This document shows, piece by piece, positions 27,216-56,679 of a stretch of 64,000 nucleotides of DNA. Source of the stretch: Eledone cirrhosa (Eukaryota); NCBI GenBank assembly GCA_964016885.1, contig OZ024740.1, positions 183,706,001-183,770,000 of the forward strand, given 5' to 3'. Numbering within the stretch: position 1 is the first letter of the stretch; the number at the start of each line of letters is the position of its first letter. The notes below the pieces were generated by a model that did not search any database, was not told where the DNA came from, and worked only from the letters and a program-made list of their open reading frames with translations. The position numbers were made by a program, and so were the translations under genes.

Positions 27216-27221
<6 letters not shown>

Positions 27222-28195
27222 GATAAATCTACCAAGAGTTTACGGTAGTGTCCAATCCGTATGAAGAACTCAATGTATTCCGGATATCATGGAAAGAAGA
27301 GATGTAATGAAAAATCACTTTCGGTGAAAGATAAACGGTATACAGAGTCAAGATAAAATATTAAACAAATAATGAATAAACAATGAAACAGTTCCTTATA
27401 TTAAACAAAAAAAGTTCATTATTTAACGATCGTTTCTAGGATATATATGTGTTAGAATTGGCATGCATATTCAACAGATCTATGTACAAAATTATACAAA
27501 ATTATACAAACTATCAAGATTAAATATACATACCAACACATATATACGCCGTCTTCAGAAATAATGAAATATATTTATTGATAATAACAACAATTCAAAA
27601 TTTCAGGTCCGTTTGGGAACAAAATTGACCAATGAAAATACAAAAGGTTTAATGCAGTTCGGTGTGTGTATATACATGTAACTACCCTTACACATATTTT
27701 ACAAAAATGTATGCACAACTTGTATACGCATACCAAAAGGATGGATGCAAATACAAAATTTCAAGGTTAATGTCTCTGTAAGTTTATAATGCACAGATAA
27801 GATGCGTATAGACACATAAATATGAAATAAATGTATACACATATTTTCATACTCACACATATCCGTACAATCACACACACACGCGCGTATATGCATAAAC
27901 ATACACATAACTACGAACATACAAACACACACACACCCCCACTCACATATATATATGTGGATATAAAATCCTAAGCACATGGATATTAATTCACTCACAT
28001 AAACACTGGCACACACATTTAGATCAAGATACAGAAATTAGGTGGGAGGGGGGGAGAGGTCAGTATTCAACGGTTTGGGCAGACTGCTTAATATAGATGT
28101 ATCTATAAACTAAGAAAATAAAAAATAATAAATAATAAATAAACATTAAAAAGGAAAGAAAAGAAAAAGAAAAAAGAAAAAAGAAATATATCAAG

Positions 28196-28247
<52 letters not shown>

Positions 28248-28395
28248 CACATATATACACATATATATATACATACACATATACAAACACATACATACAT
28301 ATACACACATCCACACTTAGAACATACATACACACACATATATAAACATATACATATACACACATACATACATATACACACATACATATAAATAA

Positions 28396-28463
<68 letters not shown>

Positions 28464-28765
28464 ATACACATATACTCACACATACTATATAGACACACAT
28501 ATATATACACACATACACGCACTTATACATACACTTACATACTTATATACATACAGATATACACATACATACCTATATATACACACAAATACATACAGAC
28601 ATACATACATACATACAGACAAATACTTACGCATCTATATATCGGTATATACATACAAACACCACTACACTCTCACACAACTCAGACATACAAAGAAAAA
28701 GGTATATACCTATACACATATACATATACAAATAGAGAAACATATACATATATATATATATATAT

Positions 28766-28808
<43 letters not shown>

Positions 28809-28996
28809 CACATATACACACATACACATACATACACATACATACATGTACACACACATAGATATATATACACATACACACATACATATATAGTCATACA
28901 CACACATACACCTACACGAACATACACATACACATATATAAAGATATATATACACACACACACACACATACAGACACACACATATATATAAAATAA

Positions 28997-29053
<57 letters not shown>

Positions 29054-29638
29054 TATACACATACATATACATACACACATACATAGACATATATGTACAT
29101 ACATACACATACATAGATACATACACACACATACATACATATATATATACACACATAGACATATACATACATACACACACAACATACATACACACATATA
29201 TACTCATACATAGAATTAGATATATATTCATACATACATACGCACTTACATATACTCATATATACAAATACATACGCATTCATATATGCGTATATACATA
29301 GAAACACCACTACACCCTCACCCAACTCAGACATACAAAGAAAAAGGCATATACATATACATATATACACGCATTAATAGAGATATATATACACATATAT
29401 ATATATATATATATATACACATACACTTATATATATATACCCACACACACATACAACCATAAATACACATACAAACACCCACATATACATATATATACAC
29501 ATATATATATATATACACACACATAAAAAACAGACATGCACATATATATTTTTTTACACATATATATACACATATATATACATATACACACCCTCACATA
29601 TACACACATACACATAAGTTATATTATAATAATAAATA

Positions 29639-29691
<53 letters not shown>

Positions 29692-29944
29692 CGAATATAG
29701 ACACATATACACACATAGATATATATATATATATATATATACACATACATATACACACACACACATACACACTCACATATATATGTGTGTGCACACACAC
29801 ATATATACACATACACACATATACACATAAACACATATATGTGTATACATGCACACACACACATATATCCACATAGATACGAAGATAGACATATAAATAG
29901 AGAGACATACATATATATACACACACACATATACATACATACAT

Positions 29945-30017
<73 letters not shown>

Positions 30018-31081
30018 CACACATACACATACACATATATATACACATGCATATATACACACATACACATACATACACACATATATATATACACACACAA
30101 TCTTACATTCTTATTTGCATGCGCATATATGTATTTTTATATTCAGATATAAATACCCAAACATATATACACCTACCTACATATATATTCATACATACAC
30201 GCTTACAAACACAGATGATAATAGTATGGGGGAAAGGGGGGGGGGTTGAGAAGGGGATTATAGTAAATATATGTTTCAAGAAACATAGAATATTATCCGT
30301 ATCTGGATCCAATGTATGTTTTTACATAGTTTCAGTGTTAGGAAATACAATAAACAAGAAATAAGGCAAAATTTATGCATTTCAAAATAAATAAGTATAC
30401 CCTTAATTATATGTTAACTAAACTAAAGATAGTTAACATATTGATTTCTAAGGTGTAAATTAGTTAGGTTTATAATATTTGAAGCAGAATTTTGAAGTTA
30501 AATAGTAGTAGAGTATTAATTATAGTATAACTAAATTAAAGTTAATAACGTTATGGTATCAATATTAGGAAATGAATTTAGTAATAGGGAAAAAACAAAT
30601 AAAGTATTACATCGGTAGTAGAATATAAATTATAGGTTAACTAAATTAAAAATTATATATTTATTTCTATAGTATATGTTAATTAGGTATATAATAAATA
30701 AAACAGATATTGTATTTTATCAAAAGCAGAATATAATTATATGCAAATAGAAATCAAAATTAATACATATACATATACATATACATACACATATATATAT
30801 ACATATATATACATATATATATACATATATACACATATACACACACATACACATACACATACACATATACATATACATATTTTTTCAAAAATTGCAAAGA
30901 ATATATTAACTAGGTATATATCCAAAACACATCCCATTCTATGATTACATGACATTCTGCAATTCGTCTGTATAAGGATACTAATTTTAAGCCAATTAAA
31001 TTAAATTTTTAGGTTGACTAAAATTAAAACCAAATTATAAATATATTTCTAAAATGTATATTAATTAGGTCTATAATACTA
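27216..31081 (-). repeat. Inverted copy of the PLE 3' non-coding region (inverted pseudo-LTR)
   Basis: Reverse complement of 33869-37688; mirrored ORF translations, e.g. 30737- vs 33995+ and 27699- vs 36888+. Confidence 0.95.
27415..27568 (-). ncRNA. PLE hammerhead ribozyme, inverted copy
   Basis: Reverse complement of 37336-37489. Confidence 0.8.
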
Positions 31082-31166
31082 TATACTATATACATATATA
31101 TGTATGATTTTATAAACCCATATACATTTAGTTGAGCTCTTTCAATTGTCCATCATCCATATCACA

Positions 31167-33608
31167 ATGGAAAAACAATATTTGGGAACCTCTTTAAAAA
31201 ACATACCAATACCTTCTAAGGATGACTTCTTACTCCTTATGATTCAAAAAACTAATAATTTTATCAGAAGGGTTAGATGGAGAGCCTACCACTTCGATAG
31301 AAAATCTAAACAAGCAGATCGGAAATATATGTATGATTTCAATACCTACAAGAATCCACCACACAACTTTTTACTTGAAGACTTCGAGAAAGACCTTTTT
31401 AATTTAATTAAACACCTCAAATTTAAAAAGTATAAATCCGTCTTTCAAAAGGACCTTGATTCTACCCTATTGGACCTAAAAAAGTCTAAAAAAATCCATG
31501 TCCACTCGGACAAAACTGGTAGCTTGTATCATATGGATATTGAACATTATAATGAGTTCATATATAAAGAACTCAGAAAAAATTATAAAAAATCTAATAA
31601 TGCGTCACTCACCAACATCAACAACAAAACACACAACATAGTAAAAAAACTAAACATTGAAGATAGAACTGAACCTTTGGCATTGAAAAGACCACACTTC
31701 AACCTGAAGGATCATAAATCAAACTTTAACTCAAATCCTTCTATTAGACTTATATGTCCCTCCAAATCAGATATTGGAATAATTAGCAAAAAAATTTTGG
31801 ATAGAGTCATCCCACAAATAAGAAAACACGTTATTTTACCACTCTGGGAAAACACCTCCCAGGTAATTAACTGGTTTAAAAATATTAGATGTAAATCTTC
31901 TGCTTCATTTCTACAATTTGATATAGATAATTACTATTCTTCTATATCACCTATACTCCTGAACAAAGCATTGATATTTGCTAAAAATAGATCTAACTTA
32001 ACTTTGGATGACATTAATATTATTACACATGCTAGACTAACACTTATTGAATTTCAGAATGAATACTGGACCAGAAACACATATAGTAATCTATTTGATA
32101 TTACTATGGGTTCAAGCGATTCCGCCCAAATTACTGATCTTGTGGGCCTCTTTCTCCTTTTCAACATAAATGCCTCCTTTCCCCACCTCAAAGGTGGTTT
32201 ATATCGTGATGACTGTCTTCTTCTTTCTAACAACCTTAGCCTTTCAGAAATTGAAAAAAACAAAAAACATATTAGAACTTTCCTTAAAGACTATTATAAT
32301 CTTAATATTACTTTTGAAAAAACAAGTAAAGTAGTAAATTTCCTAGATATAACTTTAGATTTAGCTACGGGTATCTACCAACCTTACCATAAACCAAACC
32401 AAAACTTACATTACATACACTCACAATCTAATCACCCTAAATCTATCCTTAAAAACCTTGCATATAATATATCACTTAGAATTTCTAACCTTTCTTCTAA
32501 CCAAGATGTATTTGATAAAAATGCGACCTTCTATAACGAAGCTCTAGATAGAAGTGGCCACAAAAATAGATTAGAATATATACCTTCTACTAAAAATACT
32601 GAAAGCATACAACCTAATATTACCAACAAACACCAAATGAAAAGTACACACCTAAATGCCACCCACACTATACCCCAAAATACCAAATCTTCTAATATAA
32701 AGTATAGTAACTCTCAAAAAACTACTCATCATACAACTCTAATAAATATTAATAATAAAACTCCTAATAAAAAGGATAAAACACCTAAATCTACAAATAT
32801 AACTAAAAATGGTTGTGGTGAGATCATTAACATTAATCCTCCTAGTAAAAATCACGATACAACATATAAAAATAATAAAAATAATAAACAACATAGAAAC
32901 CGTAATAGACGGGTTACTTGGTATAATGCTCCATTTAATTTACAAATTAAGGATAATATTGCTAAACAATTTTTTTATATCCTAGAGAAAAACTTCCCGC
33001 CAAACCACAAATACCATCAAATCTTAAATAGGTCTACAGTTAAATTCTCATACTCTACAACAAATAACATAAAACAAAATATAAGTGCCTATAATGCATA
33101 TAAATGTAAGAAAACCATAAGTATACCACCAGTACATCAAATTAACCATAATATCTCCTCAAATACAGAATTAACGAAAGGTTGTAACTGTAGAAACAAA
33201 GCAAACTGCCCATTAAAAGGGAATTGTCTTGTTAACAACATAGTCTATAAATGTAATGTTAAAACTAAAGATTCTATTTGCTCATATATAGGAGCTACCT
33301 CTAACAATTTTAAGACAAGGTTTAATACCCACAAGCATAGTTTTAAAAATGCCGCACTGGCTAATACAACATCTCTAGCAGAAAAAATCAATAGTTATAA
33401 AAATAAGAATATAGAATATGATTTGACCTGGAGTGTGCTCAAAAGAGCCACCCCTTATCAAAATAATAGAAATGAATGTAGATTATGTTCCCAAGAACTA
33501 TTTGAAATAATGAAATCTAAGGATATCCTATTAAATAAACGACAGGAATTAATTATATCGTGTAATCATAAACTAAAAAAAACATTTAAATATTATAAAC
33601 CTAATTAA
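31167..33608 (+). CDS. PLE polyprotein: reverse transcriptase + C-terminal GIY-YIG endonuclease (813 aa from first ATG; track starts at TTG 31146)
   Basis: SLKNIPIP, SDKTG, RT motifs FDIDNYYSSI, MGSSDSAQ, GLYRDD, NFLDITL, YHKP, HSQSNHP; CNC-x5-CPLxGxC linker; IVYK...SYIGAT..FKTRFNTH, CRLC, LLNKRQE. Confidence 0.95.
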   Translation: MEKQYLGTSLKNIPIPSKDDFLLLMIQKTNNFIRRVRWRAYHFDRKSKQADRKYMYDFNTYKNPPHNFLLEDFEKDLFNLIKHLKFKKYKSVFQKDLDSTLLDLKKSKKIHVHSDKTGSLYHMDIEHYNEFIYKELRKNYKKSNNASLTNINNKTHNIVKKLNIEDRTEPLALKRPHFNLKDHKSNFNSNPSIRLICPSKSDIGIISKKILDRVIPQIRKHVILPLWENTSQVINWFKNIRCKSSASFLQFDIDNYYSSISPILLNKALIFAKNRSNLTLDDINIITHARLTLIEFQNEYWTRNTYSNLFDITMGSSDSAQITDLVGLFLLFNINASFPHLKGGLYRDDCLLLSNNLSLSEIEKNKKHIRTFLKDYYNLNITFEKTSKVVNFLDITLDLATGIYQPYHKPNQNLHYIHSQSNHPKSILKNLAYNISLRISNLSSNQDVFDKNATFYNEALDRSGHKNRLEYIPSTKNTESIQPNITNKHQMKSTHLNATHTIPQNTKSSNIKYSNSQKTTHHTTLININNKTPNKKDKTPKSTNITKNGCGEIININPPSKNHDTTYKNNKNNKQHRNRNRRVTWYNAPFNLQIKDNIAKQFFYILEKNFPPNHKYHQILNRSTVKFSYSTTNNIKQNISAYNAYKCKKTISIPPVHQINHNISSNTELTKGCNCRNKANCPLKGNCLVNNIVYKCNVKTKDSICSYIGATSNNFKTRFNTHKHSFKNAALANTTSLAEKINSYKNKNIEYDLTWSVLKRATPYQNNRNECRLCSQELFEIMKSKDILLNKRQELIISCNHKLKKTFKYYKPN

Positions 33609-34928
33609 TAACATTATTTTAGAAATTAATTTAATTTAAATGTTAGTTAACCTATAAATTTAATTTTAATTTAATTAAAATTCTATTACAGATGAGAATA
33701 TAAAATATTATGTAATCATAAATTGTGAAAAACCTTTAAATATTACTAATATATACTTAGTAATTTAATTTATAGATTAATTTTAATTTATTTAAACCTT
33801 TTATTATAATTCTTTTACAGATAAAATATAACAAAATATCGTGTATCCAATGACAGAGAAATAATTTTTAGTATTATAGACCTAATTAATATACATTTTA
33901 GAAATATATTTATAATTTGGTTTTAATTTTAGTCAACCTAAAAATTTAATTTAATTGGCTTAAAATTAGTATCCTTATACAGACGAATTGCAGAATGTCA
34001 TGTAATCATAGAATGGGATGTGTTTTGGATATATACCTAGTTAATATATTCTTTGCAATTTTTGAAAAAATATGTATATGTATATGTGTATGTGTATGTG
34101 TATGTGTGTGTATATGTGTATATATGTATATATATATGTATATATATGTATATATATATGTGTATGTATATGTATATGTATATGTATTAATTTTGATTTC
34201 TATTTGCATATAATTATATTCTGCTTTTGATAAAATACAATATCTGTTTTATTTATTATATACCTAATTAACATATACTATAGAAATAAATATATAATTT
34301 TTAATTTAGTTAACCTATAATTTATATTCTACTACCGATGTAATACTTTATTTGTTTTTTCCCTATTACTAAATTCATTTCCTAATATTGATACCATAAC
34401 GTTATTAACTTTAATTTAGTTATACTATAATTAATACTCTACTACTATTTAACTTCAAAATTCTGCTTCAAATATTATAAACCTAACTAATTTACACCTT
34501 AGAAATCAATATGTTAACTATCTTTAGTTTAGTTAACATATAATTAAGGGTATACTTATTTATTTTGAAATGCATAAATTTTGCCTTATTTCTTGTTTAT
34601 TGTATTTCCTAACACTGAAACTATGTAAAAACATACATTGGATCCAGATACGGATAATATTCTATGTTTCTTGAAACATATATTTACTATAATCCCCTTC
34701 TCACCCCCCCCCTTTCCCCCATACTATTATCATCTGTGTTTGTAAGCGTGTATGTATGAATATATATGTAGGTAGGTGTATATATGTTTGGGTATTTATA
34801 TCTGAATATAAAAATACATATATGCGCATGCAAATAAGAATGTAAGATTGTGTGTGTATATATATGTGTGTATGTATGTGTATGTGTGTATATATGCATG
34901 TGTATATATATGTGTATGTGTATGTGTG

Positions 34929-34983
<55 letters not shown>

Positions 34984-35180
34984 ATGTATGTATGTATATG
35001 TGTGTGTGTATATATATGTATGTCTCTCTATTTATATGTCTATCTTCGTATCTATGTGGATATATGTGTGTGTGTGCATGTATACACATATATGTGTTTA
35101 TGTGTATATGTGTGTATGTGTATATATGTGTGTGTGCACACACATATATATGTGAGTGTGTATGTGTGTGTGTGTATATG

Positions 35181-35214
<34 letters not shown>

Positions 35215-35238
35215 TGTGTGTATATGTGTCTATATTAG

Positions 35239-35285
<47 letters not shown>

Positions 35286-35868
35286 TATTTATTATTATAA
35301 TATAACTTATGTGTATGTGTGTATATGTGAGGGTGTGTATATGTATATATATGTGTATATATATGTGTAAAAAAATATATATGTGCATGTCTGTTTTTTA
35401 TGTGTGTGTATATATATATATATGTGTATATATATGTATATGTGGGTGTTTGTATGTGTATTTATGGTTGTATGTGTGTGTGGGTATATATATATAAGTG
35501 TATGTGTATATATATATATATATATATGTGTATATATATCTCTATTAATGCGTGTATATATGTATATGTTTATGCCTTTTTCTTTGTATGTCTGAGTTGG
35601 GTGAGGGTGTAGTGGTGTTTCTATGTATATACGCATATATGAATGCGTATGTATTTGTATATATGAGTATATGTAAGTGCGTATGTATGTATGAATATAT
35701 ATCTAATTCTATGTATGAGTATATATGTGTGTATGTATGTTGTGTGTGTATGTATGTATATGTCTATGTGTGTATATATATATGTATGTATGTGTGTGTA
35801 TGTATCTATGTATGTGTATGTATGTACATATATGTCTATGTATGTGTGTATGTATATGTATGTGTATA

Positions 35869-35907
<39 letters not shown>

Positions 35908-36103
35908 TTATTTTATATATATGTGTGTGTCTGTATGTGTGTGTGTGTGTGTATATATATCTTTATATATGTGTATGTGTATGTTCGTGTAGGTGTATGT
36001 GTGTGTATGACTATATATGTATGTGTGTATGTGTGTATGTGTATATATATCTATGTGTGTGTACATGTATGTATGTGTATGTATGTGTATGTGTGTATAT
36101 GTG

Positions 36104-36174
<71 letters not shown>

Positions 36175-36452
36175 GTTTCTCTATTTCTATATGTATATGT
36201 GTATAGCTATATACCTTTTTCTTTGTATGTCTGAGTTGTGTGAGAGTGTAGTGGTGTTTGTATGTATATACCGATATATAGATGCGTAAGTATTTGTCTG
36301 TATGTATGTATGTATGTCTGTATGTATTTGTGTGTATATATAGGTATGTATGTGTATATCTGTATGTATATAAGTATGTAAGTGTATGTATAAGTGCGTG
36401 TATGTGTGTATATATATGTGTGTCTATATAGTATGTGTGAGTATATGTGTAT

Positions 36453-36528
<76 letters not shown>

Positions 36529-36656
36529 ATTTATATGTATGTGTGTATATGTATGTATGTGTGTATATGTATATGTTTATATATGTGTGTGTATGTATGT
36601 TCTAAGTGTGGATGTGTGTATATGTATGTATGTGTTTGTATATGTGTATATATGTG

Positions 36657-36708
<52 letters not shown>

Positions 36709-37335
36709 CTTGATATATTTCTTTTTTCTTTTTTCTTTTTCTTTTCTTTCCTTTTTAATGTTTATTTATTATTTATTATTTTTTATTTTCTTAGTTTATA
36801 GATACATCTATATTAAGCAGTCTGCCCAAACCGTTGAATACTGACCTCTCCCCCCCTCCCACCTAATTTCTGTATCTTGATCTAAATGTGTGTGCCAGTG
36901 TTTATGTGAGTGAATTAATATCCATGTGCTTAGGATTTTATATCCACATATATATATGTGAGTGGGGGTGTGTGTGTGTTTGTATGTTCGTAGTTATGTG
37001 TATGTTTATGCATATACGCGCGTGTGTGTGTGATTGTACGGATATGTGTGAGTATGAAAATATGTGTATACATTTATTTCATATTTATGTGTCTATACGC
37101 ATCTTATCTGTGCATTATAAACTTACAGAGACATTAACCTTGAAATTTTGTATTTGCATCCATCCTTTTGGTATGCGTATACAAGTTGTGCATACATTTT
37201 TGTAAAATATGTGTAAGGGTAGTTACATGTATATACACACACCGAACTGCATTAAACCTTTTGTATTTTCATTGGTCAATTTTGTTCCCAAACGGACCTG
37301 AAATTTTGAATTGTTGTTATTATCAATAAATATAT

Positions 37336-37489
37336 TTCATTATTTCTGAAGACGGCGTATATATGTGTTGGTATGTATATTTAATCTTGATAGTTTGTAT
37401 AATTTTGTATAATTTTGTACATAGATCTGTTGAATATGCATGCCAATTCTAACACATATATATCCTAGAAACGATCGTTAAATAATGAA
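37336..37489 (+). ncRNA. PLE type I hammerhead ribozyme with ~115-nt stem II
   Basis: TTCATTATTT-CTGAAGA-(long hairpin)-GAAA-CGATCG-TT-AAATAATGAA; perfect 10-bp stem I, palindromic stem III, predicted cut after 37479. Confidence 0.8.
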
Positions 37490-37839
37490 CTTTTTTTGTT
37501 TAATATAAGGACCTGTTTCATTGTTTATTCATTATTTGTTTAATATTTTATCTTGACTCTGTATACCGTTTATCTTTCACCGAAAGTGATTTTTCATTAC
37601 ATCTCTTCTTTCCATGATATCCGGAATACATTGAGTTCTTCATACGGATTGGACACTACCGTAAACTCTTGGTAGATTTATCTACATAATTTTTGCTCCT
37701 ATTTTCACGGAAATATTCGTATTTTTGTACTGTATGTGTGTATTAATTTTATATTTATGTATATACATATATATGTATGATTTTATAAACCCATATACAT
37801 TTAGTTGAGCTCTTTCAATTGTCCATCATCCATATCACA

Positions 37840-44511: not shown

Positions 44512-46953
44512 ATGGAAAAACAATATTTGGGAACCTCTTTAAAAAACATACCAATACCTTCTAAGGATGACTTCTTACTCCTTATGATTCAAAAAACTAA
44601 TAATTTTATCAGAAGGGTTAGATGGAGAGCCTACCACTTCGATAGAAAATCTAAACAAGCAGATCGGAAATATATGTATGATTTCAATACCTACAAGAAT
44701 CCACCACACAACTTTTTACTTGAAGACTTCGAGAAAGACCTTTTTAATTTAATTAAACACCTCAAATTTAAAAAGTATAAATCCGTCTTTCAAAAGGACC
44801 TTGATTCTACCCTATTGGACCTAAAAAAGTCTAAAAAAATCCATGTCCACTCGGACAAAACTGGTAACTTGTATCATATGGATATTGAACATTATAATGA
44901 GTTCATATATAAAGAACTCAGAAAAAATTATAAAAAATCTAATAATGCGTCACTCACCAACATCAACAACAAAACACACAACATAGTAAAAAAACTAAAC
45001 ATTGAAGATAGAACTGAACCTTTGGCATTGAAAAGACCACACTTCAACCTGAAGGATCATAAATCAAACTTTAACTCAAATCCTTCTATTAGACTTATAT
45101 GTCCCTCCAAATCAGATATTGGAATAATTAGCAAAAAAATTTTGGATAGAGTCATCCCACAAATAAGAAAACACGTTATTTTACCACTCTGGGAAAACAC
45201 CTCCCAGGTAATTAACTGGTTTAAAAATATTAGATGTAAATCTTCTGCTTCTTTTCTACAATTTGATATAGATAATTACTATTCTTCTATATCACCTATA
45301 CTCCTGAACAAAGCATTGATATTTGCTAAAAATAGATCTAACTTAACTTTGGATGACATTAATATTATTACACATGCTAGACTAACACTTATTGAATTTC
45401 AGAATGAATACTGGACCAGAAACACATATAGTAATCTATTTGATATTACTATGGGTTCAAGCGATTCCGCCCAAATTACTGATCTTGTGGGCCTCTTTCT
45501 CCTTTTCAACATAAATGCCTCCTTTCCCCACCTCAAAGGTGGTTTATATCGTGATGACTGTCTTCTTCTTTCTAACAACCTTAGCCTTTCAGAAATTGAA
45601 AAAAACAAAAAACATATTAGAACTTTCCTTAAAGACTATTATAATCTTAATATTACTTTTGAAAAAACAAGTAAAGTAGTAAATTTCCTAGATATAACTT
45701 TAGATTTAGCTACGGGTATCTACCAACCTTACCATAAACCAAACCAAAACTTACATTACATACACTCACAATCTAATCACCCTAAATCTATCCTTAAAAA
45801 CCTTGCATATAATATATCACTTAGAATTTCTAACCTTTCTTCTAACCAAGATGTATTTGATAAAAATGCGACCTTCTATAACGAAGCTCTAGATAGAAGT
45901 GGCCACAAAAATAGATTAGAATATATACCTTCTACTAAAAATACTGAAAGCATACAACCTAATATTACCAACAAACACCAAATGAAAAGTACACACCTAA
46001 ATGCCACCCACACTATACCCCAAAATACCAAATCTTCTAATATAAAGTATAGTAACTCTCAAAAAACTACTCATCATACAACTCTAATAAATATTAATAA
46101 TAAAACTCCTAATAAAAAGGATAAAACACCTAAATCTACAAATATAACTAAAAATGGTTGTGGTGAGATCATTAACATTAATCCTCCTAGTAAAAATCAC
46201 GATACAACATATCAAAATAATAAAAATAATAAACAACATAGAAACCGTAATAGACGGGTTACTTGGTATAATGCTCCATTTAATTTACAAATTAAGGATA
46301 ATATTGCTAAACAATTTTTTTATATCCTAGAGAAAAACTTCCCGCCAAACCACAAATACCATCAAATCTTAAATAGGTCTACAGTTAAATTCTCATACTC
46401 TACAACAAATAACATAAAACAAAATATAAGTGCCTATAATGCATATAAATGTAAGAAAACCATAAGTATACCACCAGTACATCAAATTAACCATAATATC
46501 TCCTCAAATACAGAATTAACGAAAGGTTGTAACTGTAGAAACAAAGCAAACTGCCCATTAAAAGGGAATTGTCTTGTTAACAACATAGTCTATAAATGTA
46601 ATGTTAAAACTAAAGATTCTATTTGCTCATATATAGGAGCTACCTCTAACAATTTTAAGACAAGGTTTAATACCCACAAGCATAGTTTTAAAAATGCCGC
46701 ACTGGCTAATACAACATCTCTAGCAGAAAAAATCAATAGTTATAAAAATAAGAATATAGAATATGATTTGACCTGGAGTGTGCTCAAAAGAGCCACCCCT
46801 TATCAAAATAATAGAAATGAATGTAGATTATGTTCCCAAGAACTATTTGAAATAATGAAATCTAAGGATATCCTATTAAATAAACGACAGGAATTAATTA
46901 TATCGTGTAATCATAAACTAAAAAAAACATTTAAATATTATAAACCTAATTAA
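44512..46953 (+). CDS. PLE RT + GIY-YIG polyprotein, copy 3
   Basis: Intact ORF; private K->Q (TYQNN); track start TTG 44491. Confidence 0.95.
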   Translation: MEKQYLGTSLKNIPIPSKDDFLLLMIQKTNNFIRRVRWRAYHFDRKSKQADRKYMYDFNTYKNPPHNFLLEDFEKDLFNLIKHLKFKKYKSVFQKDLDSTLLDLKKSKKIHVHSDKTGNLYHMDIEHYNEFIYKELRKNYKKSNNASLTNINNKTHNIVKKLNIEDRTEPLALKRPHFNLKDHKSNFNSNPSIRLICPSKSDIGIISKKILDRVIPQIRKHVILPLWENTSQVINWFKNIRCKSSASFLQFDIDNYYSSISPILLNKALIFAKNRSNLTLDDINIITHARLTLIEFQNEYWTRNTYSNLFDITMGSSDSAQITDLVGLFLLFNINASFPHLKGGLYRDDCLLLSNNLSLSEIEKNKKHIRTFLKDYYNLNITFEKTSKVVNFLDITLDLATGIYQPYHKPNQNLHYIHSQSNHPKSILKNLAYNISLRISNLSSNQDVFDKNATFYNEALDRSGHKNRLEYIPSTKNTESIQPNITNKHQMKSTHLNATHTIPQNTKSSNIKYSNSQKTTHHTTLININNKTPNKKDKTPKSTNITKNGCGEIININPPSKNHDTTYQNNKNNKQHRNRNRRVTWYNAPFNLQIKDNIAKQFFYILEKNFPPNHKYHQILNRSTVKFSYSTTNNIKQNISAYNAYKCKKTISIPPVHQINHNISSNTELTKGCNCRNKANCPLKGNCLVNNIVYKCNVKTKDSICSYIGATSNNFKTRFNTHKHSFKNAALANTTSLAEKINSYKNKNIEYDLTWSVLKRATPYQNNRNECRLCSQELFEIMKSKDILLNKRQELIISCNHKLKKTFKYYKPN

Positions 46954-48277
46954 TAACATTATTTTAGAAATTAATTTAATTTAAATGTTAGTTAACCTAT
47001 AAATTTAATTTTAATTTAATTAAAATTCTATTACAGATGAGAATATAAAATATTATGTAATCATAAATTGTGAAAAACCTTTAAATATTACTAATATATA
47101 CTTAGTAATTTAATTTATAGATTAATTTTAATTTATTTAAACCTTTTATTATAATTCTTTTACAGATAAAATATAACAAAATATCGTGTATCCAATGACA
47201 GAGAAATAATTTTTAGTATTATAGACCTAATTAATATACATTTTAGAAATATATTTATAATTTGGTTTTAATTTTAGTCAACCTAAAAATTTAATTTAAT
47301 TGGCTTAAAATTAGTATCCTTATACAGACGAATTGCAGAATGTCATGTAATCATAGAATGGGATGTGTTTTGGATATATACCTAGTTAATATATTCTTTG
47401 CAATTTTTGAAAAAATATGTATATGTATATGTGTATGTGTATGTGTATGTGTGTGTATATGTGTATATATGTATATATATATGTATATATATGTATATAT
47501 ATATGTGTATGTATATGTATATGTATATGTATTAATTTTGATTTCTATTTGCATATAATTATATTCTGCTTTTGATAAAATACAATATCTGTTTTATTTA
47601 TTATATACCTAATTAACATATACTATAGAAATAAATATATAATTTTTAATTTAGTTAACCTATAATTTATATTCTACTACCGATGTAATACTTTATTTGT
47701 TTTTTCCCTATTACTAAATTCATTTCCTAATATTGATACCATAACGTTATTAACTTTAATTTAGTTATACTATAATTAATACTCTACTACTATTTAACTT
47801 CAAAATTCTGCTTCAAATATTATAAACCTAACTAATTTACACCTTAGAAATCAATATGTTAACTATCTTTAGTTTAGTTAACATATAATTAAGGGTATAC
47901 TTATTTATTTTGAAATGCATAAATTTTGCCTTATTTCTTGTTTATTGTATTTCCTAACACTGAAACTATGTAAAAACATACATTGGATCCAGATACGGAT
48001 AATATTCTATGTTTCTTGAAACATATATTTACTATAATCCCCTTCTCACCCCCCCCCCCCCTTTCCCCCATACTATTATCATCTGTGTTTGTAAGCGTGT
48101 ATGTATGAATATATATGTAGGTAGGTGTATATATGTTTGGGTATTTATATCTGAATATAAAAATACATATATGCGCATGCAAATAAGAATGTAAGATTGT
48201 GTGTGTATATATATGTGTGTATGTATGTGTATGTGTGTATATATGCATGTGTATATATATGTGTATGTGTATGTGTG

Positions 48278-48332
<55 letters not shown>

Positions 48333-48585
48333 ATGTATGTATGTATATGTGTGTGTGTATATATATGTATGTCTCTCTATTTATATGTCTATCTTCGTAT
48401 CTATGTGGATATATGTGTGTGTGTGCATGTATACACATATATGTGTTTATGTGTATATGTGTGTATGTGTATATATGTGTGTGTGCACACACATATATAT
48501 GTGAGTGTGTATGTGTGTGTGTGTATATGTATGTGTATATATATATATATATATATATCTATGTGTGTATATGTGTCTATATTAG

Positions 48586-48632
<47 letters not shown>

Positions 48633-49217
48633 TATTTATTATTATAATATAACTTATGTGTATGTGTGTATATGTGAGGGTGTGTATATGTATATATATG
48701 TGTATATATATGTGTAAAAAAATATATATGTGCATGTCTGTTTTTTATGTGTGTGTATATATATATATATGTGTATATATATGTATATGTGGGTGTTTGT
48801 ATGTGTATTTATGGTTGTATGTGTGTGTGGGTATATATATATAAGTGTATGTGTATATATATATATATATATATATGTGTATATATATCTCTATTAATGC
48901 GTGTATATATGTATATGTTTATGCCTTTTTCTTTGTATGTCTGAGTTGGGTGAGGGTGTAGTGGTGTTTCTATGTATATACGCATATATGAATGCGTATG
49001 TATTTGTATATATGAGTATATGTAAGTGCGTATGTATGTATGAATATATATCTAATTCTATGTATGAGTATATATGTGTGTATGTATGTTGTGTGTGTAT
49101 GTATGTATATGTCTATGTGTGTATATATATATGTATGTATGTGTGTGTATGTATCTATGTATGTGTATGTATGTACATATATGTCTATGTATGTGTGTAT
49201 GTATATGTATGTGTATA

Positions 49218-49256
<39 letters not shown>

Positions 49257-49450
49257 TTATTTTATATATATGTGTGTGTCTGTATGTGTGTGTGTGTGTA
49301 TATATATCTTTATATATGTGTATGTGTATGTTCGTGTAGGTGTATGTGTGTGTATGACTATATATGTATGTGTGTATGTGTGTATGTGTATATATATCTA
49401 TGTGTGTGTACATGTATGTATGTGTATGTATGTGTATGTGTGTATATGTG

Positions 49451-49517
<67 letters not shown>

Positions 49518-49795
49518 GTTTCTCTATTTCTATATGTATATGTGTATAGCTATATACCTTTTTCTTTGTATGTCTGAGTTGTGTGAGAGTGTAGTGGTGT
49601 TTGTATGTATATACCGATATATAGATGCGTAAGTATTTGTCTGTATGTATGTATGTATGTCTGTATGTATTTGTGTGTATATATAGGTATGTATGTGTAT
49701 ATCTGTATGTATATAAGTATGTAAGTGTATGTATAAGTGCGTGTATGTGTGTATATATATGTGTGTCTATATAGTATGTGTGAGTATATGTGTAT

Positions 49796-49877
<82 letters not shown>

Positions 49878-50005
49878 ATTTATATGTATGTGTGTATATG
49901 TATGTATGTGTGTATATGTATATGTTTATATATGTGTGTGTATGTATGTTCTAAGTGTGGATGTGTGTATATGTATGTATGTGTTTGTATATGTGTATAT
50001 ATGTG

Positions 50006-50059
<54 letters not shown>

Positions 50060-50686
50060 CTTGATATATTTCTTTTTTCTTTTTTCTTTTTCTTTTCTTT
50101 CCTTTTTAATGTTTATTTATTATTTATTATTTTTTATTTTCTTAGTTTATAGATACATCTATATTAAGCAGTCTGCCCAAACCGTTGAATACTGACCTCT
50201 CCCCCCCTCCCACCTAATTTCTGTATCTTGATCTAAATGTGTGTGCCAGTGTTTATGTGAGTGAATTAATATCCATGTGCTTAGGATTTTATATCCACAT
50301 ATATATATGTGAGTGGGGGTGTGTGTGTGTTTGTATGTTCGTAGTTATGTGTATGTTTATGCATATACGCGCGTGTGTGTGTGATTGTACGGATATGTGT
50401 GAGTATGAAAATATGTGTATACATTTATTTCATATTTATGTGTCTATACGCATCTTATCTGTGCATTATAAACTTACAGAGACATTAACCTTGAAATTTT
50501 GTATTTGCATCCATCCTTTTGGTATGCGTATACAAGTTGTGCATACATTTTTGTAAAATATGTGTAAGGGTAGTTACATGTATATACACACACCGAACTG
50601 CATTAAACCTTTTGTATTTTCATTGGTCAATTTTGTTCCCAAACGGACCTGAAATTTTGAATTGTTGTTATTATCAATAAATATAT

Positions 50687-50840
50687 TTCATTATTTCTGA
50701 AGACGGCGTATATATGTGTTGGTATGTATATTTAATCTTGATAGTTTGTATAATTTTGTATAATTTTGTACATAGATCTGTTGAATATGCATGCCAATTC
50801 TAACACATATATATCCTAGAAACGATCGTTAAATAATGAA
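50687..50840 (+). ncRNA. PLE hammerhead ribozyme, unit 3
   Basis: Same sequence as 37336-37489. Confidence 0.8.
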
Positions 50841-51190
50841 CTTTTTTTGTTTAATATAAGGACCTGTTTCATTGTTTATTCATTATTTGTTTAATATTTT
50901 ATCTTGACTCTGTATACCGTTTATCTTTCACCGAAAGTGATTTTTCATTACATCTCTTCTTTCCATGATATCCGGAATACATTGAGTTCTTCATACGGAT
51001 TGGACACTACCGTAAACTCTTGGTAGATTTATCTACATAATTTTTGCTCCTATTTTCACGGAAATATTCGTATTTTTGTACTGTATGTGTGTATTAATTT
51101 TATATTTATGTATATACATATATATGTATGATTTTATAAACCCATATACATTTAGTTGAGCTCTTTCAATTGTCCATCATCCATATCACA

Positions 51191-53632
51191 ATGGAAAAAC
51201 AATATTTGGGAACCTCTTTAAAAAACATACCAATACCTTCTAAGGATGACTTCTTACTCCTTATGATTCAAAAAACTAATAATTTTATCAGAAGGGTTAG
51301 ATGGAGAGCCTACCACTTCGATAGAAAATCTAAACAAGCAGATCGGAAATATATGTATGATTTCAATACCTACAAGAATCCACCACACAACTTTTTACTT
51401 GAAGACTTCGAGAAAGACCTTTTTAATTTAATTAAACACCTCAAATTTAAAAAGTATAAATCCGTCTTTCAAAAGGACCTTGATTCTACCCTATTGGACC
51501 TAAAAAAGTCTAAAAAAATCCATGTCCACTCGGACAAAACTGGTAACTTGTATCATATGGATATTGAACATTATAATGAGTTCATATATAAAGAACTCAG
51601 AAAAAATTATAAAAAATCTAATAATGCGTCACTCACCAACATCAACAACAAAACACACAACATAGTAAAAAAACTAAACATTGAAGATAGAACTGAACCT
51701 TTGGCATTGAAAAGACCACACTTCAACCTGAAGGATCATAAATCAAACTTTAACTCAAATCCTTCTATTAGACTTATATGTCCCTCCAAATCAGATATTG
51801 GAATAATTAGCAAAAAAATTTTGGATAGAGTCATCCCACAAATAAGAAAACACGTTATTTTACCACTCTGGGAAAACACCTCCCAGGTAATTAACTGGTT
51901 TAAAAATATTAGATGTAAATCTTCTGCTTCTTTTCTACAATTTGATATAGATAATTACTATTCTTCTATATCACCTATACTCCTGAACAAAGCATTGATA
52001 TTTGCTAAAAATAGATCTAACTTAACTTTGGATGACATTAATATTATTACACATGCTAGACTAACACTTATTGAATTTCAGAATGAATACTGGACCAGAA
52101 ACACATATAGTAATCTATTTGATATTACTATGGGTTCAAGCGATTCCGCCCAAATTACTGATCTTGTGGGCCTCTTTCTCCTTTTCAACATAAATGCCTC
52201 CTTTCCCCACCTCAAAGGTGGTTTATATCGTGATGACTGTCTTCTTCTTTCTAACAACCTTAGCCTTTCAGAAATTGAACAAAACAAAAAACATATTAGA
52301 ACTTTCCTTAAAGACTATTATAATCTTAATATTACTTTTGAAAAAACAAGTAAAGTAGTAAATTTCCTAGATATAACTTTAGATTTAGCTACGGGTATCT
52401 ACCAACCTTACCATAAACCAAACCAAAACTTACATTACATACACTCACAATCTAATCACCCTAAATCTATCCTTAAAAACCTTGCATATAATATATCACT
52501 TAGAATTTCTAACCTTTCTTCTAACCAAGATGTATTTGATAAAAATGCGACCTTCTATAACGAAGCTCTAGATAGAAGTGGCCACAAAAATAGATTAGAA
52601 TATATACCTTCTACTAAAAATACTGAAAGCATACAACCTAATATTACCAACAAACACCAAATGAAAAGTACACACCTAAATGCCACCCACACTATACCCC
52701 AAAATACCAAATCTTCTAATATAAAGTATAGTAACTCTCAAAAAACTACTCATCATACAACTCTAATAAATATTAATAATAAAACTCCTAATAAAAAGGA
52801 TAAAACACCTAAATCTACAAATATAACTAAAAATGGTTGTGGTGAGATCATTAACATTAATCCTCCTAGTAAAAATCACGATACAACATATAAAAATAAT
52901 AAAAATAATAAACAACATAGAAACCGTAATAGACGGGTTACTTGGTATAATGCTCCATTTAATTTACAAATTAAGGATAATATTGCTAAAAAATTTTTTT
53001 ATATCCTAGAGAAAAACTTCCCGCCAAACCACAAATACCATCAAATCTTAAATAGGTCTACAGTTAAATTCTCATACTCTACAACAAATAACATAAAACA
53101 AAATATAAGTGCCTATAATGCATATAAATGTAAGAAAACCATAAGTATACCACCAGTACATCAAATTAACCATAATATCTCCTCAAATACAGAATTAACG
53201 AAAGGTTGTAACTGTAGAAACAAAGCAAACTGCCCATTAAAAGGGAATTGTCTTGTTAACAACATAGTCTATAAATGTAATGTTAAAACTAAAGATTCTA
53301 TTTGCTCATATATAGGAGCTACCTCTAACAATTTTAAGACAAGGTTTAATACCCACAAGCATAGTTTTAAAAATGCCGCACTGGCTAATACAACATCTCT
53401 AGCAGAAAAAATCAATGGTTATAAAAATAAGAATATAGAATATGATTTGACCTGGAGTGTGCTCAAAAGAGCCACCCCTTATCAAAATAATAGAAATGAA
53501 TGTAGATTATGTTCCCAAGAACTATTTGAAATAATGAAATCTAAGGATATCCTATTAAATAAACGACAGGAATTAATTATATCGTGTAATCATAAACTAA
53601 AAAAAACATTTAAATATTATAAACCTAATTAA
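51191..53632 (+). CDS. PLE RT + GIY-YIG polyprotein, copy 4
   Basis: Intact ORF; private substitutions EIEQ, IAKK, INGY; track start TTG 51170. Confidence 0.95.
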   Translation: MEKQYLGTSLKNIPIPSKDDFLLLMIQKTNNFIRRVRWRAYHFDRKSKQADRKYMYDFNTYKNPPHNFLLEDFEKDLFNLIKHLKFKKYKSVFQKDLDSTLLDLKKSKKIHVHSDKTGNLYHMDIEHYNEFIYKELRKNYKKSNNASLTNINNKTHNIVKKLNIEDRTEPLALKRPHFNLKDHKSNFNSNPSIRLICPSKSDIGIISKKILDRVIPQIRKHVILPLWENTSQVINWFKNIRCKSSASFLQFDIDNYYSSISPILLNKALIFAKNRSNLTLDDINIITHARLTLIEFQNEYWTRNTYSNLFDITMGSSDSAQITDLVGLFLLFNINASFPHLKGGLYRDDCLLLSNNLSLSEIEQNKKHIRTFLKDYYNLNITFEKTSKVVNFLDITLDLATGIYQPYHKPNQNLHYIHSQSNHPKSILKNLAYNISLRISNLSSNQDVFDKNATFYNEALDRSGHKNRLEYIPSTKNTESIQPNITNKHQMKSTHLNATHTIPQNTKSSNIKYSNSQKTTHHTTLININNKTPNKKDKTPKSTNITKNGCGEIININPPSKNHDTTYKNNKNNKQHRNRNRRVTWYNAPFNLQIKDNIAKKFFYILEKNFPPNHKYHQILNRSTVKFSYSTTNNIKQNISAYNAYKCKKTISIPPVHQINHNISSNTELTKGCNCRNKANCPLKGNCLVNNIVYKCNVKTKDSICSYIGATSNNFKTRFNTHKHSFKNAALANTTSLAEKINGYKNKNIEYDLTWSVLKRATPYQNNRNECRLCSQELFEIMKSKDILLNKRQELIISCNHKLKKTFKYYKPN

Positions 53633-54957
53633 TAACATTATTTTAGAAATTAATTTAATTTAAATGTTAGTTAACCTATAAATTTAATTTTAATTTAATT
53701 AAAATTCTATTACAGATGAGAATATAAAATATTATGTAATCATAAATTGTGAAAAACCTTTAAATATTACTAATATATACTTAGTAATTTAATTTATAGA
53801 TTAATTTTAATTTATTTAAACCTTTTATTATAATTCTATTACAGATAAAATATAACAAAATATCGTGTATCCAATGACAGAAAAATAATTTTTAGTATTA
53901 TAGACCTAATTAATATACATTTTAGAAATATATTTATAATTTGGTTTTAATTTTAGTCAACCTAAAAATTTAATTTAATTGGCTTAAAATTAGTATCCTT
54001 ATACAGACGAATTGCAGAATGTCATGTAATCATAGAATGGGATGTGTTTTGGATATATACCTAGTTAATATATTCTTTGCAATTTTTGAAAAAATATGTA
54101 TATGTATATGTGTATGTGTATGTGTATGTGTGTGTATATGTGTATATATGTATATATATATGTATATATATGTATATATATATGTGTATGTATATGTATA
54201 TGTATATGTATTAATTTTGATTTCTATTTGCATATAATTATATTCTGCTTTTGATAAAATACAATATCTGTTTTATTTATTATATACCTAATTAACATAT
54301 ACTATAGAAATAAATATATAATTTTTAATTTAGTTAACCTATAATTTATATTCTACTACCGATGTAATACTTTATTTGTTTTTTCCCTATTACTAAATTC
54401 ATTTCCTAATATTGATACCATAACGTTATTAACTTTAATTTAGTTATACTATAATTAATACTCTACTACTATTTAACTTCAAAATTCTGCTTCAAATATT
54501 ATAAACCTAACTAATTTACACCTTAGAAATCAATATGTTAACTATCTTTAGTTTAGTTAACATATAATTAAGGGTATACTTATTTATTTTGAAATGCATA
54601 AATTTTGCCTTATTTCTTGTTTATTGTATTTCCTAACACTGAAACTATGTAAAAACATACATTGGATCCAGATACGGATAATATTCTATGTTTCTTGAAA
54701 CATATATTTACTATAATCCCCTTCTCACCCCCCCCCCCCCCTTTCCCCCATACTATTATCATCTGTGTTTGTAAGCGTGTATGTATGAATATATATGTAG
54801 GTAGGTGTATATATGTTTGGGTATTTATATCTGAATATAAAAATACATATATGCGCATGCAAATAAGAATGTAAGATTGTGTGTGTATATATATGTGTGT
54901 ATGTATGTGTATGTGTGTATATATGCATGTGTATATATATGTGTATGTGTATGTGTG

Positions 54958-55004
<47 letters not shown>

Positions 55005-55200
55005 TTATTTTATATATATGTGTGTGTCTGTATGTGTGTGTGTGTGTGTATATATATCTTTATATATGTGTATGTGTATGTTCGTGTAGGTGTATGTGTG
55101 TGTATGACTATATATGTATGTGTGTATGTGTGTATGTGTATATATATCTATGTGTGTGTACATGTATGTATGTGTATGTATGTGTATGTGTGTATATGTG

Positions 55201-55267
<67 letters not shown>

Positions 55268-55545
55268 GTTTCTCTATTTGTATATGTATATGTGTATAGG
55301 TATATACCTTTTTCTTTGTATGTCTGAGTTGTGTGAGAGTGTAGTGGTGTTTGTATGTATATACCGATATATAGATGCGTAAGTATTTGTCTGTATGTAT
55401 GTATGTATGTCTGTATGTATTTGTGTGTATATATAGGTATGTATGTGTATATCTGTATGTATATAAGTATGTAAGTGTATGTATAAGTGCGTGTATGTGT
55501 GTATATATATGTGTGTCTATATAGTATGTGTGAGTATATGTGTAT

Positions 55546-55613
<68 letters not shown>

Positions 55614-55759
55614 ATTTATATGTATGTGTGTATATGTATGTATGTGTGTATATGTATATGTTTATATATGTGTGTGTATGTATGTTTTAAGTGTGGATGT
55701 GTGTATATGTATGTATGTGTTTGTATATGTGTATGTATATATATATGTGTATATATGTG

Positions 55760-55801
<42 letters not shown>

Positions 55802-56428
55802 CTTGATATATTTCTTTTTTCTTTTTTCTTTTTCTTTTCTTTCCTTTTTAATGTTTATTTATTATTTATTATTTTTTTATTTTCTTAGTTTATAGATACA
55901 TCTATATTAAGCAGTCTGCCCAAACCGTTGAATACTGACCTCTCCCCCCTCCCACCTAATTTCTGTATCTTGATCTAAATGTGTGTGCCAGTGTTTATGT
56001 GAGTGAATTAATATCCATGTGCTTAGGATTTTATATCCACATATATATATGTTAGTGGGGGTGTGTGTGTGTTTGTATGTTCGTAGTTATGTGTATGTTT
56101 ATGCATATACGCGCGTGTGTGTGTGATTGTACGGATATGTGTGAGTATGAAAATATGTGTATACATTTATTTCATATTTATGTGTCTATACGCATCTTAT
56201 CTGTGCATTATAAACTTACAGAGACATTAACCTTGAAATTTTGTATTTGCATCCATCCTTTTGGTATGCGTATACAAGTTGTGCATACATTTTTGTAAAA
56301 TATGTGTAAGGGTAGTTACATGTATATACACACACCGAACTGCATTAAACCTTTTGTATTTTCATTGGTCAATTTTGTTCCCAAACGGACCTGAAATTTT
56401 GAATTGTTGTTATTATCAATAAATATAT

Positions 56429-56582
56429 TTCATTATTTCTGAAGACGGCGTATATATGTGTTGGTATGTATATTTAATCTTGATAGTTTGTATAATTTTG
56501 TATAATTTTGTACATAGATCTGTTGAATATGCATGCCAATTCTAACACATATATATCCTAGAAACGATCGTTAAATAATGAA
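56429..56582 (+). ncRNA. PLE hammerhead ribozyme, unit 4
   Basis: Same sequence as 37336-37489. Confidence 0.8.
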
Positions 56583-56635
56583 CTTTTTTTGTTTAATATA
56601 AGGAACTGTTTCATTGTTTATTCATTATTTGTTTA

Positions 56636-56679
<44 letters not shown>

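What the first reader, a model, noticed from the sequence alone, without database searches (positions are those of the whole stretch)
27216..56644. 29-kb intact Penelope-like array: four open RT-GIY-YIG ORFs, a giant non-coding region and an inverted arm
Seen: four ORFs differing by only a handful of substitutions, all catalytic motifs intact, a 6.67-kb period of which ~4.2 kb is non-coding, both ends in (TA)n, and no recognisable target-site duplication. Established: PLE RTs are the sister group of telomerase RT and use partial tandems so that the upstream copy supplies the promoter; pseudo-LTRs are usually far shorter. The SLKNIPIP start, DKT and CNC-x5-CPLxGxC linker suggest a Nematis-type lineage, which I cannot confirm. 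Inference: a potentially active master locus of an undescribed family.
Basis: partly seen in the sequence, partly recalled or inferred. Interest (0 to 1): 0.8.

Follow-up and report, generated by a model that had tools for sequence, protein, structure and literature searches.

The report
Oversized Hydra retroelement with hidden hammerhead
This is a young jumping-gene insertion of the known Hydra group of Penelope-like elements, unusual because each 6.7-kb unit is about 2.7 times the normal length and ends in a predicted self-cutting RNA too stretched for usual searches, and its four copies likely grew from two by later recombination rather than marking a master copy.

Summary
Observation confirmed: four open 813-codon RT + GIY-YIG ORFs (1-5 differences per pair), a 6,672-6,679-bp period, a 3,866-bp inverted arm, and both ends in (TA)n. 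The clade is Hydra (Craig 2021), not Nematis: RWR, DKT, CxCX5C, no CCHH.

The 'giant pLTR' is a 3.7-kb microsatellite-rich spacer plus a terminal piece of about 370 bp. Reads place the family's 3' end at 37688. That piece holds a complete type I hammerhead motif (10-bp stem I, 0 of 300 shuffles) with a 115-nt stem II. My first descriptor, my covariance model and Rfam all missed it. Relatives have the ribozyme 47-461 nt after the stop and a period near 2.45 kb; here the figures are 3,738 nt and 6.67 kb.

Shared derived alleles make ORFs 2 and 3 mosaics of ORF4 (5') and ORF1 (3'). A two-copy insertion was therefore probably expanded by unequal crossover; an assembly loop would look the same. Master status is unsupported: intact frames are expected from youth, and the inner units' alleles are nearly absent from public reads. 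The scan had not noted this before. Verdict: new variant of a known kind.

The parts
27159..27215 (.). left (TA)n target run
27216..31081 (-). inverted 5'-truncated copy (unit positions 37688 back to 33869); carries the family's usual 3' end
   Evidence: 594 raw reads leave the element at 37688 into (TA)n
27216..27352 (-). 137-bp tail present at the left end and in inner units, absent at the right end
27415..27568 (-). hammerhead motif in the arm (core 27558, predicted cut after 27425)
31082..31086 (.). inversion junction: 5-bp filler that makes a 7-bp local duplication; the forward copy starts 71 bp after the unit's 3'/5' border
31087..37688 (+). unit 1 (lacks the first 71 bp of the leader)
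31167..33608 (+). ORF1, 813 aa: Hydra-type RT, low-complexity linker, CxCX5C, C-terminal GIY-YIG
32586..32894 (+). 103-aa N/T/K-rich linker, predicted disordered (pLDDT <50)
33609..37317 (+). 3.7-kb spacer between stop codon and terminal pLTR piece (same in every unit)
33630..34640 (+). decayed repeat of about 105-150 bp, about 7 copies
   Evidence: best pair z 12.6; 10 of 21 pairs beat all 200 shuffles
34840..36709 (+). degenerate TA/TG microsatellite block
37318..37688 (+). terminal pLTR-like piece, about 370 bp; left border set only by a step in read depth
   Evidence: depth 338k-557k against 17k-75k just upstream in X1
37336..37489 (+). type I hammerhead motif: stem I 37336-45 with 37480-89, core CTGAAGA 37346, 115-nt stem II, GAAA 37468, palindromic stem III, predicted cut after 37479
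37528..37537 (+). exact second copy of the stem I 5' strand; could compete for the 3' strand
   Evidence: sequence; competing hairpin
37689..44360 (+). unit 2, full monomer of 6,672 bp (151 leader + 2,442 ORF + trailer); ORF2 37840-40281; hammerhead 44008-44161
44361..51039 (+). unit 3, 6,679 bp; ORF3 44512-46953; hammerhead 50687-50840
51040..56644 (+). unit 4, 5,605 bp; ORF4 51191-53632; about 930 bp deleted near 54970-55000; hammerhead 56429-56582; ends 72 nt after the predicted cut
56645..56696 (.). right (TA)n target run

Best explanation
This is a young insertion of a Hydra-clade Penelope-like retroelement with a 6.67-kb unit, which likely entered a (TA)n run as an inverted arm plus two tandem copies and likely grew to four copies afterwards by unequal crossover. 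Shown: protein type, unit anatomy, family 3' end at 37688, a full hammerhead motif near that end, and mosaic middle ORFs. Inferred from the one PLE studied in vitro (PMC11167929): the GIY-YIG domain nicks both strands of the AT-rich target, and each nick primes reverse transcription at an internal site of a tandem RNA. One cDNA starts at 37688 (the arm) and the other 137 nt upstream (the right end), which leaves a one-sided tail; the two cDNAs are then joined head to head by microhomology. Inferred by analogy with Adineta Pen1 (PMC3846280): the long unit arose when host-like DNA came to lie between the ORF and the ribozyme-bearing pLTR. Predicted and untested: the hammerhead cuts tandem transcripts into monomers, probably as a dimer through its palindromic stem III.
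For: Clade motifs match the Hydra text and alignment; among 84 relatives of 650 aa or more, DK[TS] is in 84, KDHK in 82 and a CCHH-type CxxC in 0. The predicted RT fold is closest to telomerase (Foldseek E 5.6e-8; Z 17.0, rmsd 2.6, 251 aligned). The C-terminus matches GIY-YIG clusters at 0.96-0.97. 3' end: 594 reads in X17 and one contig in X4. Hammerhead: 10-bp stem I in all 5 copies, 0 of 300 shuffles reach it, fold z -5.7. History: ORF1 differs from ORFs 2-4 only at nt 356 and 741; ORF4 differs from ORFs 1-3 only from nt 1090 on; the arm and unit 4 share 3 alleles against units 1-3. Family reads make 37512-C (units 1-3), 38580-T (ORFs 2-4) and 39640-C (ORFs 1-3) the minority states. 11 old substitutions in 10.9 kb against 1 new in 13.6 kb, p = 0.001.
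Against: An assembler looping through the identical stretch (ORF nt 742-1089) would give the same mosaics, and no long read was available. The active hammerhead fold is 3.2 kcal/mol above the minimum, and downstream strands can capture its stem I. No tree with labelled clade references was built. Reads were laid only on 36790-40740, so the middle of the spacer was not checked in other copies. Depth at the ORF's 3' end is 2-4 times that of the proximal spacer in X1 and X4, so many family members may have another trailer. The laid runs may be from other species than the window. Only 3 of the variable sites could be polarised.
Confidence: 0.65

Rival explanations
1. The real locus is a two-ORF insertion (arm, ORF1, spacer, ORF4, end) and units 2-3 are an assembly over-expansion.
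For: A graph loop predicts exactly the 5'-ORF4/3'-ORF1 mosaics; trailers 1-3 show no substitution among them.
Against: Trailers 1-3 differ in repeat length at several places, and ORF3 has one private substitution (nt 1702), so the inner units are not plain duplicates. Read or polishing errors in microsatellites could mimic this.
Confidence: 0.17
2. All four units were written in one event (rolling circle on a ribozyme-cut monomer, or copy of a long read-through RNA from a donor array).
For: Exact head-to-tail joints; a ribozyme in each unit; tandem multi-copy RNA is the proposed PLE template.
Against: One template predicts equal private divergence of all copies. Observed are overlapping shared derived alleles and a 14-fold deficit in the inner units (p = 0.001). 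A mosaic donor only moves the recombination elsewhere and needs a 30-kb cDNA.
Confidence: 0.1
3. The array is an active master locus kept intact by selection.
For: Four open frames with all catalytic residues; units 2-4 each have an upstream pLTR; 1,362 of 7,573 laid contigs in X1 are at least 99% alike, so young copies exist.
Against: 5 of 6 ORF changes are non-synonymous (80% expected) and P(no stop) is 0.75. Inner-unit alleles are rare in reads: at 37512 the other letter has depth 506,030 of 506,126 in X1, at 39640 21,551 of 21,641. Those runs may not be the window's species. Long inverted arms would favour double-stranded RNA and silencing (inference).
Confidence: 0.08

Closest known systems
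Hydra clade of Penelope-like elements (Craig et al. 2021, PMC8557442), e.g. Hydra-1_Obim, Hydra-1_Ajap, Penelope-13_HM
   Same: RW[KR], DKT, KDHK..RLI.P, CxCX5C, C-terminal GIY-YIG without CCHH, CxxC and CxH around E and N, (TA)n target, type I hammerhead near the 3' end; an inverted truncated 5' copy is listed for Penelope-13_HM.
   Different: Unit 6.67 kb against 1.1-3.0 kb for all 27 listed consensuses and a median tandem period of 2.45 kb in 25 measurements on relatives. Stop-to-ribozyme distance 3,738 nt against 47-461 (54 loci). Stem II 115 nt against 10-25 in 57 of 65 descriptor hits. Longest linker of 56 measured. Nearest database protein 46-48% identical. By eye a different family from Hydra-1_Obim.
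Pen1_Av and Pen2-4_Av of Adineta vaga (Arkhipova et al. 2013, PMC3846280)
   Same: A spacer of apparently captured host DNA between ORF and 3' pLTR; asparagine-rich inserts in the ORF; partial tandems with inverted flanks and microhomology joints.
   Different: Those spacers are 0.9-1.5 kb and differ between copies; this one is 3.7 kb and the same in all units. Their clade was not checked here.
Poseidon_Ac (PAc) of Anolis (Frangieh et al. 2024, PMC11167929)
   Same: AT-rich cleavage of both strands and two internal RT start sites whose interval is the tail fit the two ends here.
   Different: Different clade; tail 137 bp against the usual 30-40 bp; the PAc ribozyme overlaps the ORF start, here it ends 350 nt before the ATG.
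Nematis clade
   Same: [quoted passage not shown]
   Different: Nematis has DK[GR], YKTHK, the CX2-5CxxC linker and CCHH; none is here.

Membership tests
Penelope-like elements (EN+) | telomerase-like RT in a single ORF | tested here: met
   model pLDDT 81.7; top fold matches are TERTs. Pfam gave no hit; the only PDB sequence hit was a retron RT at E 0.011
Penelope-like elements (EN+) | GIY-YIG endonuclease with R, H, E, N residues | tested here: met
   IVY..YIG, R718, H722, E777, N790; atlas GIY-YIG clusters 0.96-0.97; this domain's fold was not searched on its own
Penelope-like elements (EN+) | tandem or partial-tandem copies, inverted 5'-truncated copy, one-sided tail | tested here: met
   against Fig. 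2 legend; the tail is 137 bp, longer than 30-40
Hydra clade | RWK and DKT motifs | tested here: met
   RWR at aa 37 (conservative variant), DKT at aa 115
Hydra clade | CxCX5C linker; CxxC and CxH flanking E and N | tested here: met
   CNCRNKANC aa 673, CRLC aa 771, CNH aa 799
Hydra clade | C-terminal endonuclease without CCHH | tested here: met
   no CxxC between IVY and YIG (two cysteines 9 residues apart, aligned to unconserved columns); 0 of 84 relatives have it
Hydra clade | no insertion-in-fingers domain | tested here: met
   motif A-B spacing 59; median 59 in 72 relatives; 60 in Hydra-1_Obim counted by eye; no Naiad control measured
Hydra clade | type I hammerhead near the 3' end | tested here: met
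   complete core and stems I-III, predicted cut 209 nt before the 3' end, but stem II is 115 nt; cleavage itself untested
Hydra clade | insertion into (TA)n | tested here: met
   both ends; 594 reads from other insertions
Hydra clade | generally short, under 3 kb (typical, not defining) | tested here: not met
   6,672 bp against 1.1-3.0 kb
Hydra clade | RT falls in the Hydra clade in a tree with labelled PLE references | not tested
   labelled references were only readable as text; the tree holds unlabelled relatives only
Nematis clade | DKG motif | tested here: not met
   DKT
Nematis clade | CCHH finger and CX2-5CxxC linker | tested here: not met
Naiad/Chlamys | N-terminal endonuclease | tested here: not met
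   endonuclease motifs at aa 692-801 of 813

The most novel reading that the evidence does not exclude
The 115-nt-stem-II hammerhead is a working, switchable ribozyme: active through its palindromic stem III, held off by the downstream copy of stem I. It would be the first clear case of a long-armed class that descriptors capped at short spacers miss. Then some PLE families listed as lacking ribozymes or as 'half-core' would in fact carry them, and this family would show that a Hydra element can carry a 3.7-kb cargo as a fixed part of its unit across species.
Probability: 0.22. Interest if true: 0.68.

Novelty: new variant of a known kind. Interest (0 to 1): 0.42.

Why it matters
Hydra is a recently named, thinly sampled and highly divergent PLE clade known from short consensuses. 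This locus gives a complete, young, both-ends-resolved insertion of a family 2.7 times the usual size. Its two ends name two candidate RT start sites 137 nt apart, which can be tested in the existing in-vitro PLE assay. Its hammerhead motif lies outside the core-spacer lengths quoted for published searches (7-17 nt, 35-50 nt for 'half-core'), so statements of ribozyme absence in PLEs deserve a re-scan. It also warns that multi-ORF PLE arrays need not be rolling-circle products or master loci.

Tried and rejected
(1) 'The element has lost its hammerhead' was my reading through. A descriptor with stem II capped at 70 nt found one in 54 of 65 relatives that had enough 3' flank (13 of the 78 loci dropped: 9 short flank, 4 no C-terminus) and at 6 places in the window's flanks, but none in the unit. 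A covariance model from 20 relatives gave at best 11.1 bits in the unit. Rfam listed no ribozyme (one search showed 150 of 194 rows, all microRNA look-alikes of the microsatellites). Rejected after the motif was seen by eye and confirmed with a 250-nt cap.
(2) The decayed repeats at 33630-34640 as old ribozymes or pLTRs: CAGA(T/C)GA words sit 81 and 372 nt after the stop, but there is no proper stem III, no model hit, and likeness to the terminal piece is marginal (3 of 100 shuffles as good). Left open.
(3) Nematis and Naiad: rejected on motifs.
(4) Pfam: no family for the ORF or for 22 relatives.
(5) The unit has no match in the window's flanks, so the spacer's source was not found.
(6) No RNA holder listed; this says nothing on expression.
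(7) No whole genome is held, so copy number and other ends were not counted.
(8) Cluster look-up gave no names for 7 relatives.
(9) By-eye look at two octopus Naiad 3' ends for a long-armed hammerhead: inconclusive.
(10) The maximum-likelihood tree did not finish; a FastTree run on 63 rows was used.
(11) Earlier scan notes: none by sequence; two unrelated Tx1 notes by words.
Full report
OBSERVATION. Four frames of 2,442 nt (813 aa) are open from ATG at 31167, 37840, 44512 and 51191; they vary at 6 sites, 1-5 per pair. Units repeat every 6,672-6,679 bp. An inverted copy of unit positions 33869-37688 fills 27216-31081; the forward array starts at 31087 and ends at 56644. Both ends run into (TA)n and share TAT with it, so no target-site duplication can be read. 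Unit 4 lacks about 930 bp between two (TA)n runs. The left flank holds no long ORF that looks like a host gene; no frame of 150 aa or more does on either side. The host is not known. An animal with microsatellite-rich DNA is an inference; a cephalopod is only my guess from recall.

PROTEIN. Pfam has no model for it, but 118 relatives were found at 31-48% identity. The AlphaFold model (mean pLDDT 81.7; residues 476-578 disordered) matches telomerase RTs best, and residues 660-813 match GIY-YIG clusters. Craig et al. 2021 define the Hydra clade by RWK, DKT, a CxCX5C linker, a C-terminal endonuclease without CCHH, CxxC and CxH around the catalytic E and N, and (TA)n targets. All are met, and the RT follows their Hydra rows, not their Nematis rows, by eye. 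In a tree of 63 unlabelled rows it sits in a well-supported group of 6. No tree with labelled references was built.

WHAT THE NON-CODING REGION IS. Public runs laid on 36790-40740 (4 of 19 listed runs) show 594 raw reads leaving the element at 37688 into (TA)n, and a contig from a second organism ending there. So 37688 is the family's usual 3' end: the monomer is a 151-bp leader, the ORF and a 4,080-bp trailer, and it is the inverted arm that carries the full end. Depth in X1 jumps about tenfold at 37318, as expected if many short 5'-truncated copies share the last 370 bp; summed contig depth is no copy number. A second heterogeneous exit at 37511 (853 reads, agreement 0.4) may be another end, 32 nt after the predicted ribozyme cut; 5 of 18 relatives show 32-33 nt. 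The rest of the trailer is a decayed repeat of 105-150 bp and a microsatellite block (1,950 of 4,080 bp alternate purine and pyrimidine, against 12-15% in the flanks). Relatives repeat every 2.36-2.76 kb in 22 of 25 measurements, and all 27 listed Hydra consensuses are 1.1-3.0 kb. A captured spacer of 0.9-1.5 kb is on record for Adineta Pen1; capture here is an analogy, since no source was found.

THE RIBOZYME. A descriptor with stem II up to 70 nt found a type I hammerhead 47-461 nt after the stop in 54 of 65 relatives, in 0 of 1,200 shuffles and nowhere in the unit; a covariance model and Rfam also found none. The motif is nevertheless there: stem I of 10 perfect pairs, core CTGAAGA at 37346, a 115-nt hairpin as stem II, GAAA, a palindromic stem III, and a predicted cut after 37479. 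It is present in all four units and in the arm; 0 of 300 shuffled units give such a stem I (5 give any hit), and the fold has z -5.7. It lies 3,738 nt after the stop and 209 nt before the 3' end. A short palindromic stem III is the mark of ribozymes that work as dimers in tandem RNA. Cautions: the active fold is 3.2 kcal/mol above the minimum; an exact second copy of the stem I strand lies at 37528-37537 and a competing hairpin is predicted; in PAc, ribozyme cleavage was not needed for insertion in vitro. Activity is untested.

HOW THE ARRAY AROSE. In sequence outside microsatellites, ORF1 differs from ORFs 2-4 only at nt 356 and 741. ORF4 and its proximal trailer differ from units 1-3 only from nt 1090 on. 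The arm and unit 4 share three alleles against units 1-3. Family reads mark 37512-C, 38580-T and 39640-C as the minority, hence likely derived, states. Units 2 and 3 are thus 5' like ORF4 and 3' like ORF1, which a crossover between nt 741 and 1090 of a two-ORF insertion produces; a second exchange doubles the middle unit. Eleven substitutions fall before that step (10.9 kb) and one after (13.6 kb), p = 0.001 (counts taken by hand). With the octopus calibration quoted in PMC13282606 (distance 0.09 = 25 My) the insertion would be about 0.3 My old and the expansion roughly ten times younger; this is rough, as the host is unknown. An assembly loop gives the same mosaics; length differences among the inner trailers and one private substitution argue only weakly against it.

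MECHANISM OF INSERTION (inferred). PAc cuts both strands of AT-rich DNA and starts reverse transcription at two internal RNA sites whose interval is the tail. Read on this locus: one nick primed at 37688 and made the arm, the other primed 137 nt upstream and made the forward copies, and the two were joined with a 5-bp filler. The forward copy stops 71 nt short of the arm's start site, as in twin priming of LINE-1 (recalled, no call); a transcript that starts there would explain it equally. The right end could also have lost 137 bp later.

MASTER LOCUS. Not supported: open frames are expected from youth (P 0.75), the changes show no purifying signal (5 of 6 non-synonymous, 80% expected), and inner-unit alleles are below 0.5% of depth in X1. 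The runs may be of other species, and no RNA data were found, so activity is not excluded.

LITERATURE SEEN. PMC8557442: main text parts 1-6 of 10, method passages, supplement parts 2, 24 and 57 of 59 and two supplement searches. PMC11167929: parts 1-2 of 4. PMC4209133: part 1 of 4 and passages. PMC3846280: part 2 of 5. PMC13282606: passages. bioRxiv 10.64898/2026.07.22.740005: part 1 of 5 and passages; its supplements are closed. Seven searches (listings only, apart from the papers named) showed no Hydra element of this size and no PLE hammerhead with such a stem II. Repbase and Dfam could not be searched, and curated octopus repeat libraries may hold the family.

VERDICT. A real, well-preserved locus of a known clade with several out-of-range features: unit length, spacer, stem II and tail. 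New variant of a known kind; interest 0.42.

Noticed in passing
window 7526, 7848, 13796, 15429, 17229 (+) and 15308 (-); also 4665-4709 (+), 17759-17813 (-), 18705-18790 (-), 19363-19448 (-): Six to ten further hammerhead motifs in 27 kb of left flank, two of them in an inverted pair (15216-15341 with 15396-15521); probably ends of other Penelope-like or retrozyme fragments.
   Followed up: partly
window 37318-37688: The terminal 370 bp is about ten times deeper than anything upstream in X1, with an abrupt step; it may be a separate short non-autonomous, ribozyme-bearing family and not only truncated copies.
   Followed up: no
window 40228-40731 (proximal spacer of unit 2): Contig joints that skip or go back 140-290 bp suggest that the decayed repeat varies in copy number among family members.
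   Followed up: no
L051:319 onward: A relative's locus gives a descriptor hit with a 112-nt stem II and a 6-bp stem I; a short hammerhead motif starts at the same core, so it may be chance.
   Followed up: no
P0001, P0002, P0003, P0005, P0008: These five group with the window's protein (support 100); three of them share the GSSDS/GSADS motif-B variant and linkers of 61-74 aa against a median of 24.5: a possible long-linker Hydra subgroup.
   Followed up: partly
L017: A relative with at least two near-complete tandem units (period 2,427 bp), so multi-unit tandems occur in ordinary-sized Hydra elements too.
   Followed up: no
window 11916-12239 (+), 23816-24097 (-), 24451-24771 (-): Short frames that look like decayed LINE (RTE-type) reverse-transcriptase fragments, by recall only.
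   Followed up: no
window 56849: A hammerhead-like core with a weak stem II 200 bp right of the array, outside the element; it passed neither descriptor.
   Followed up: partly
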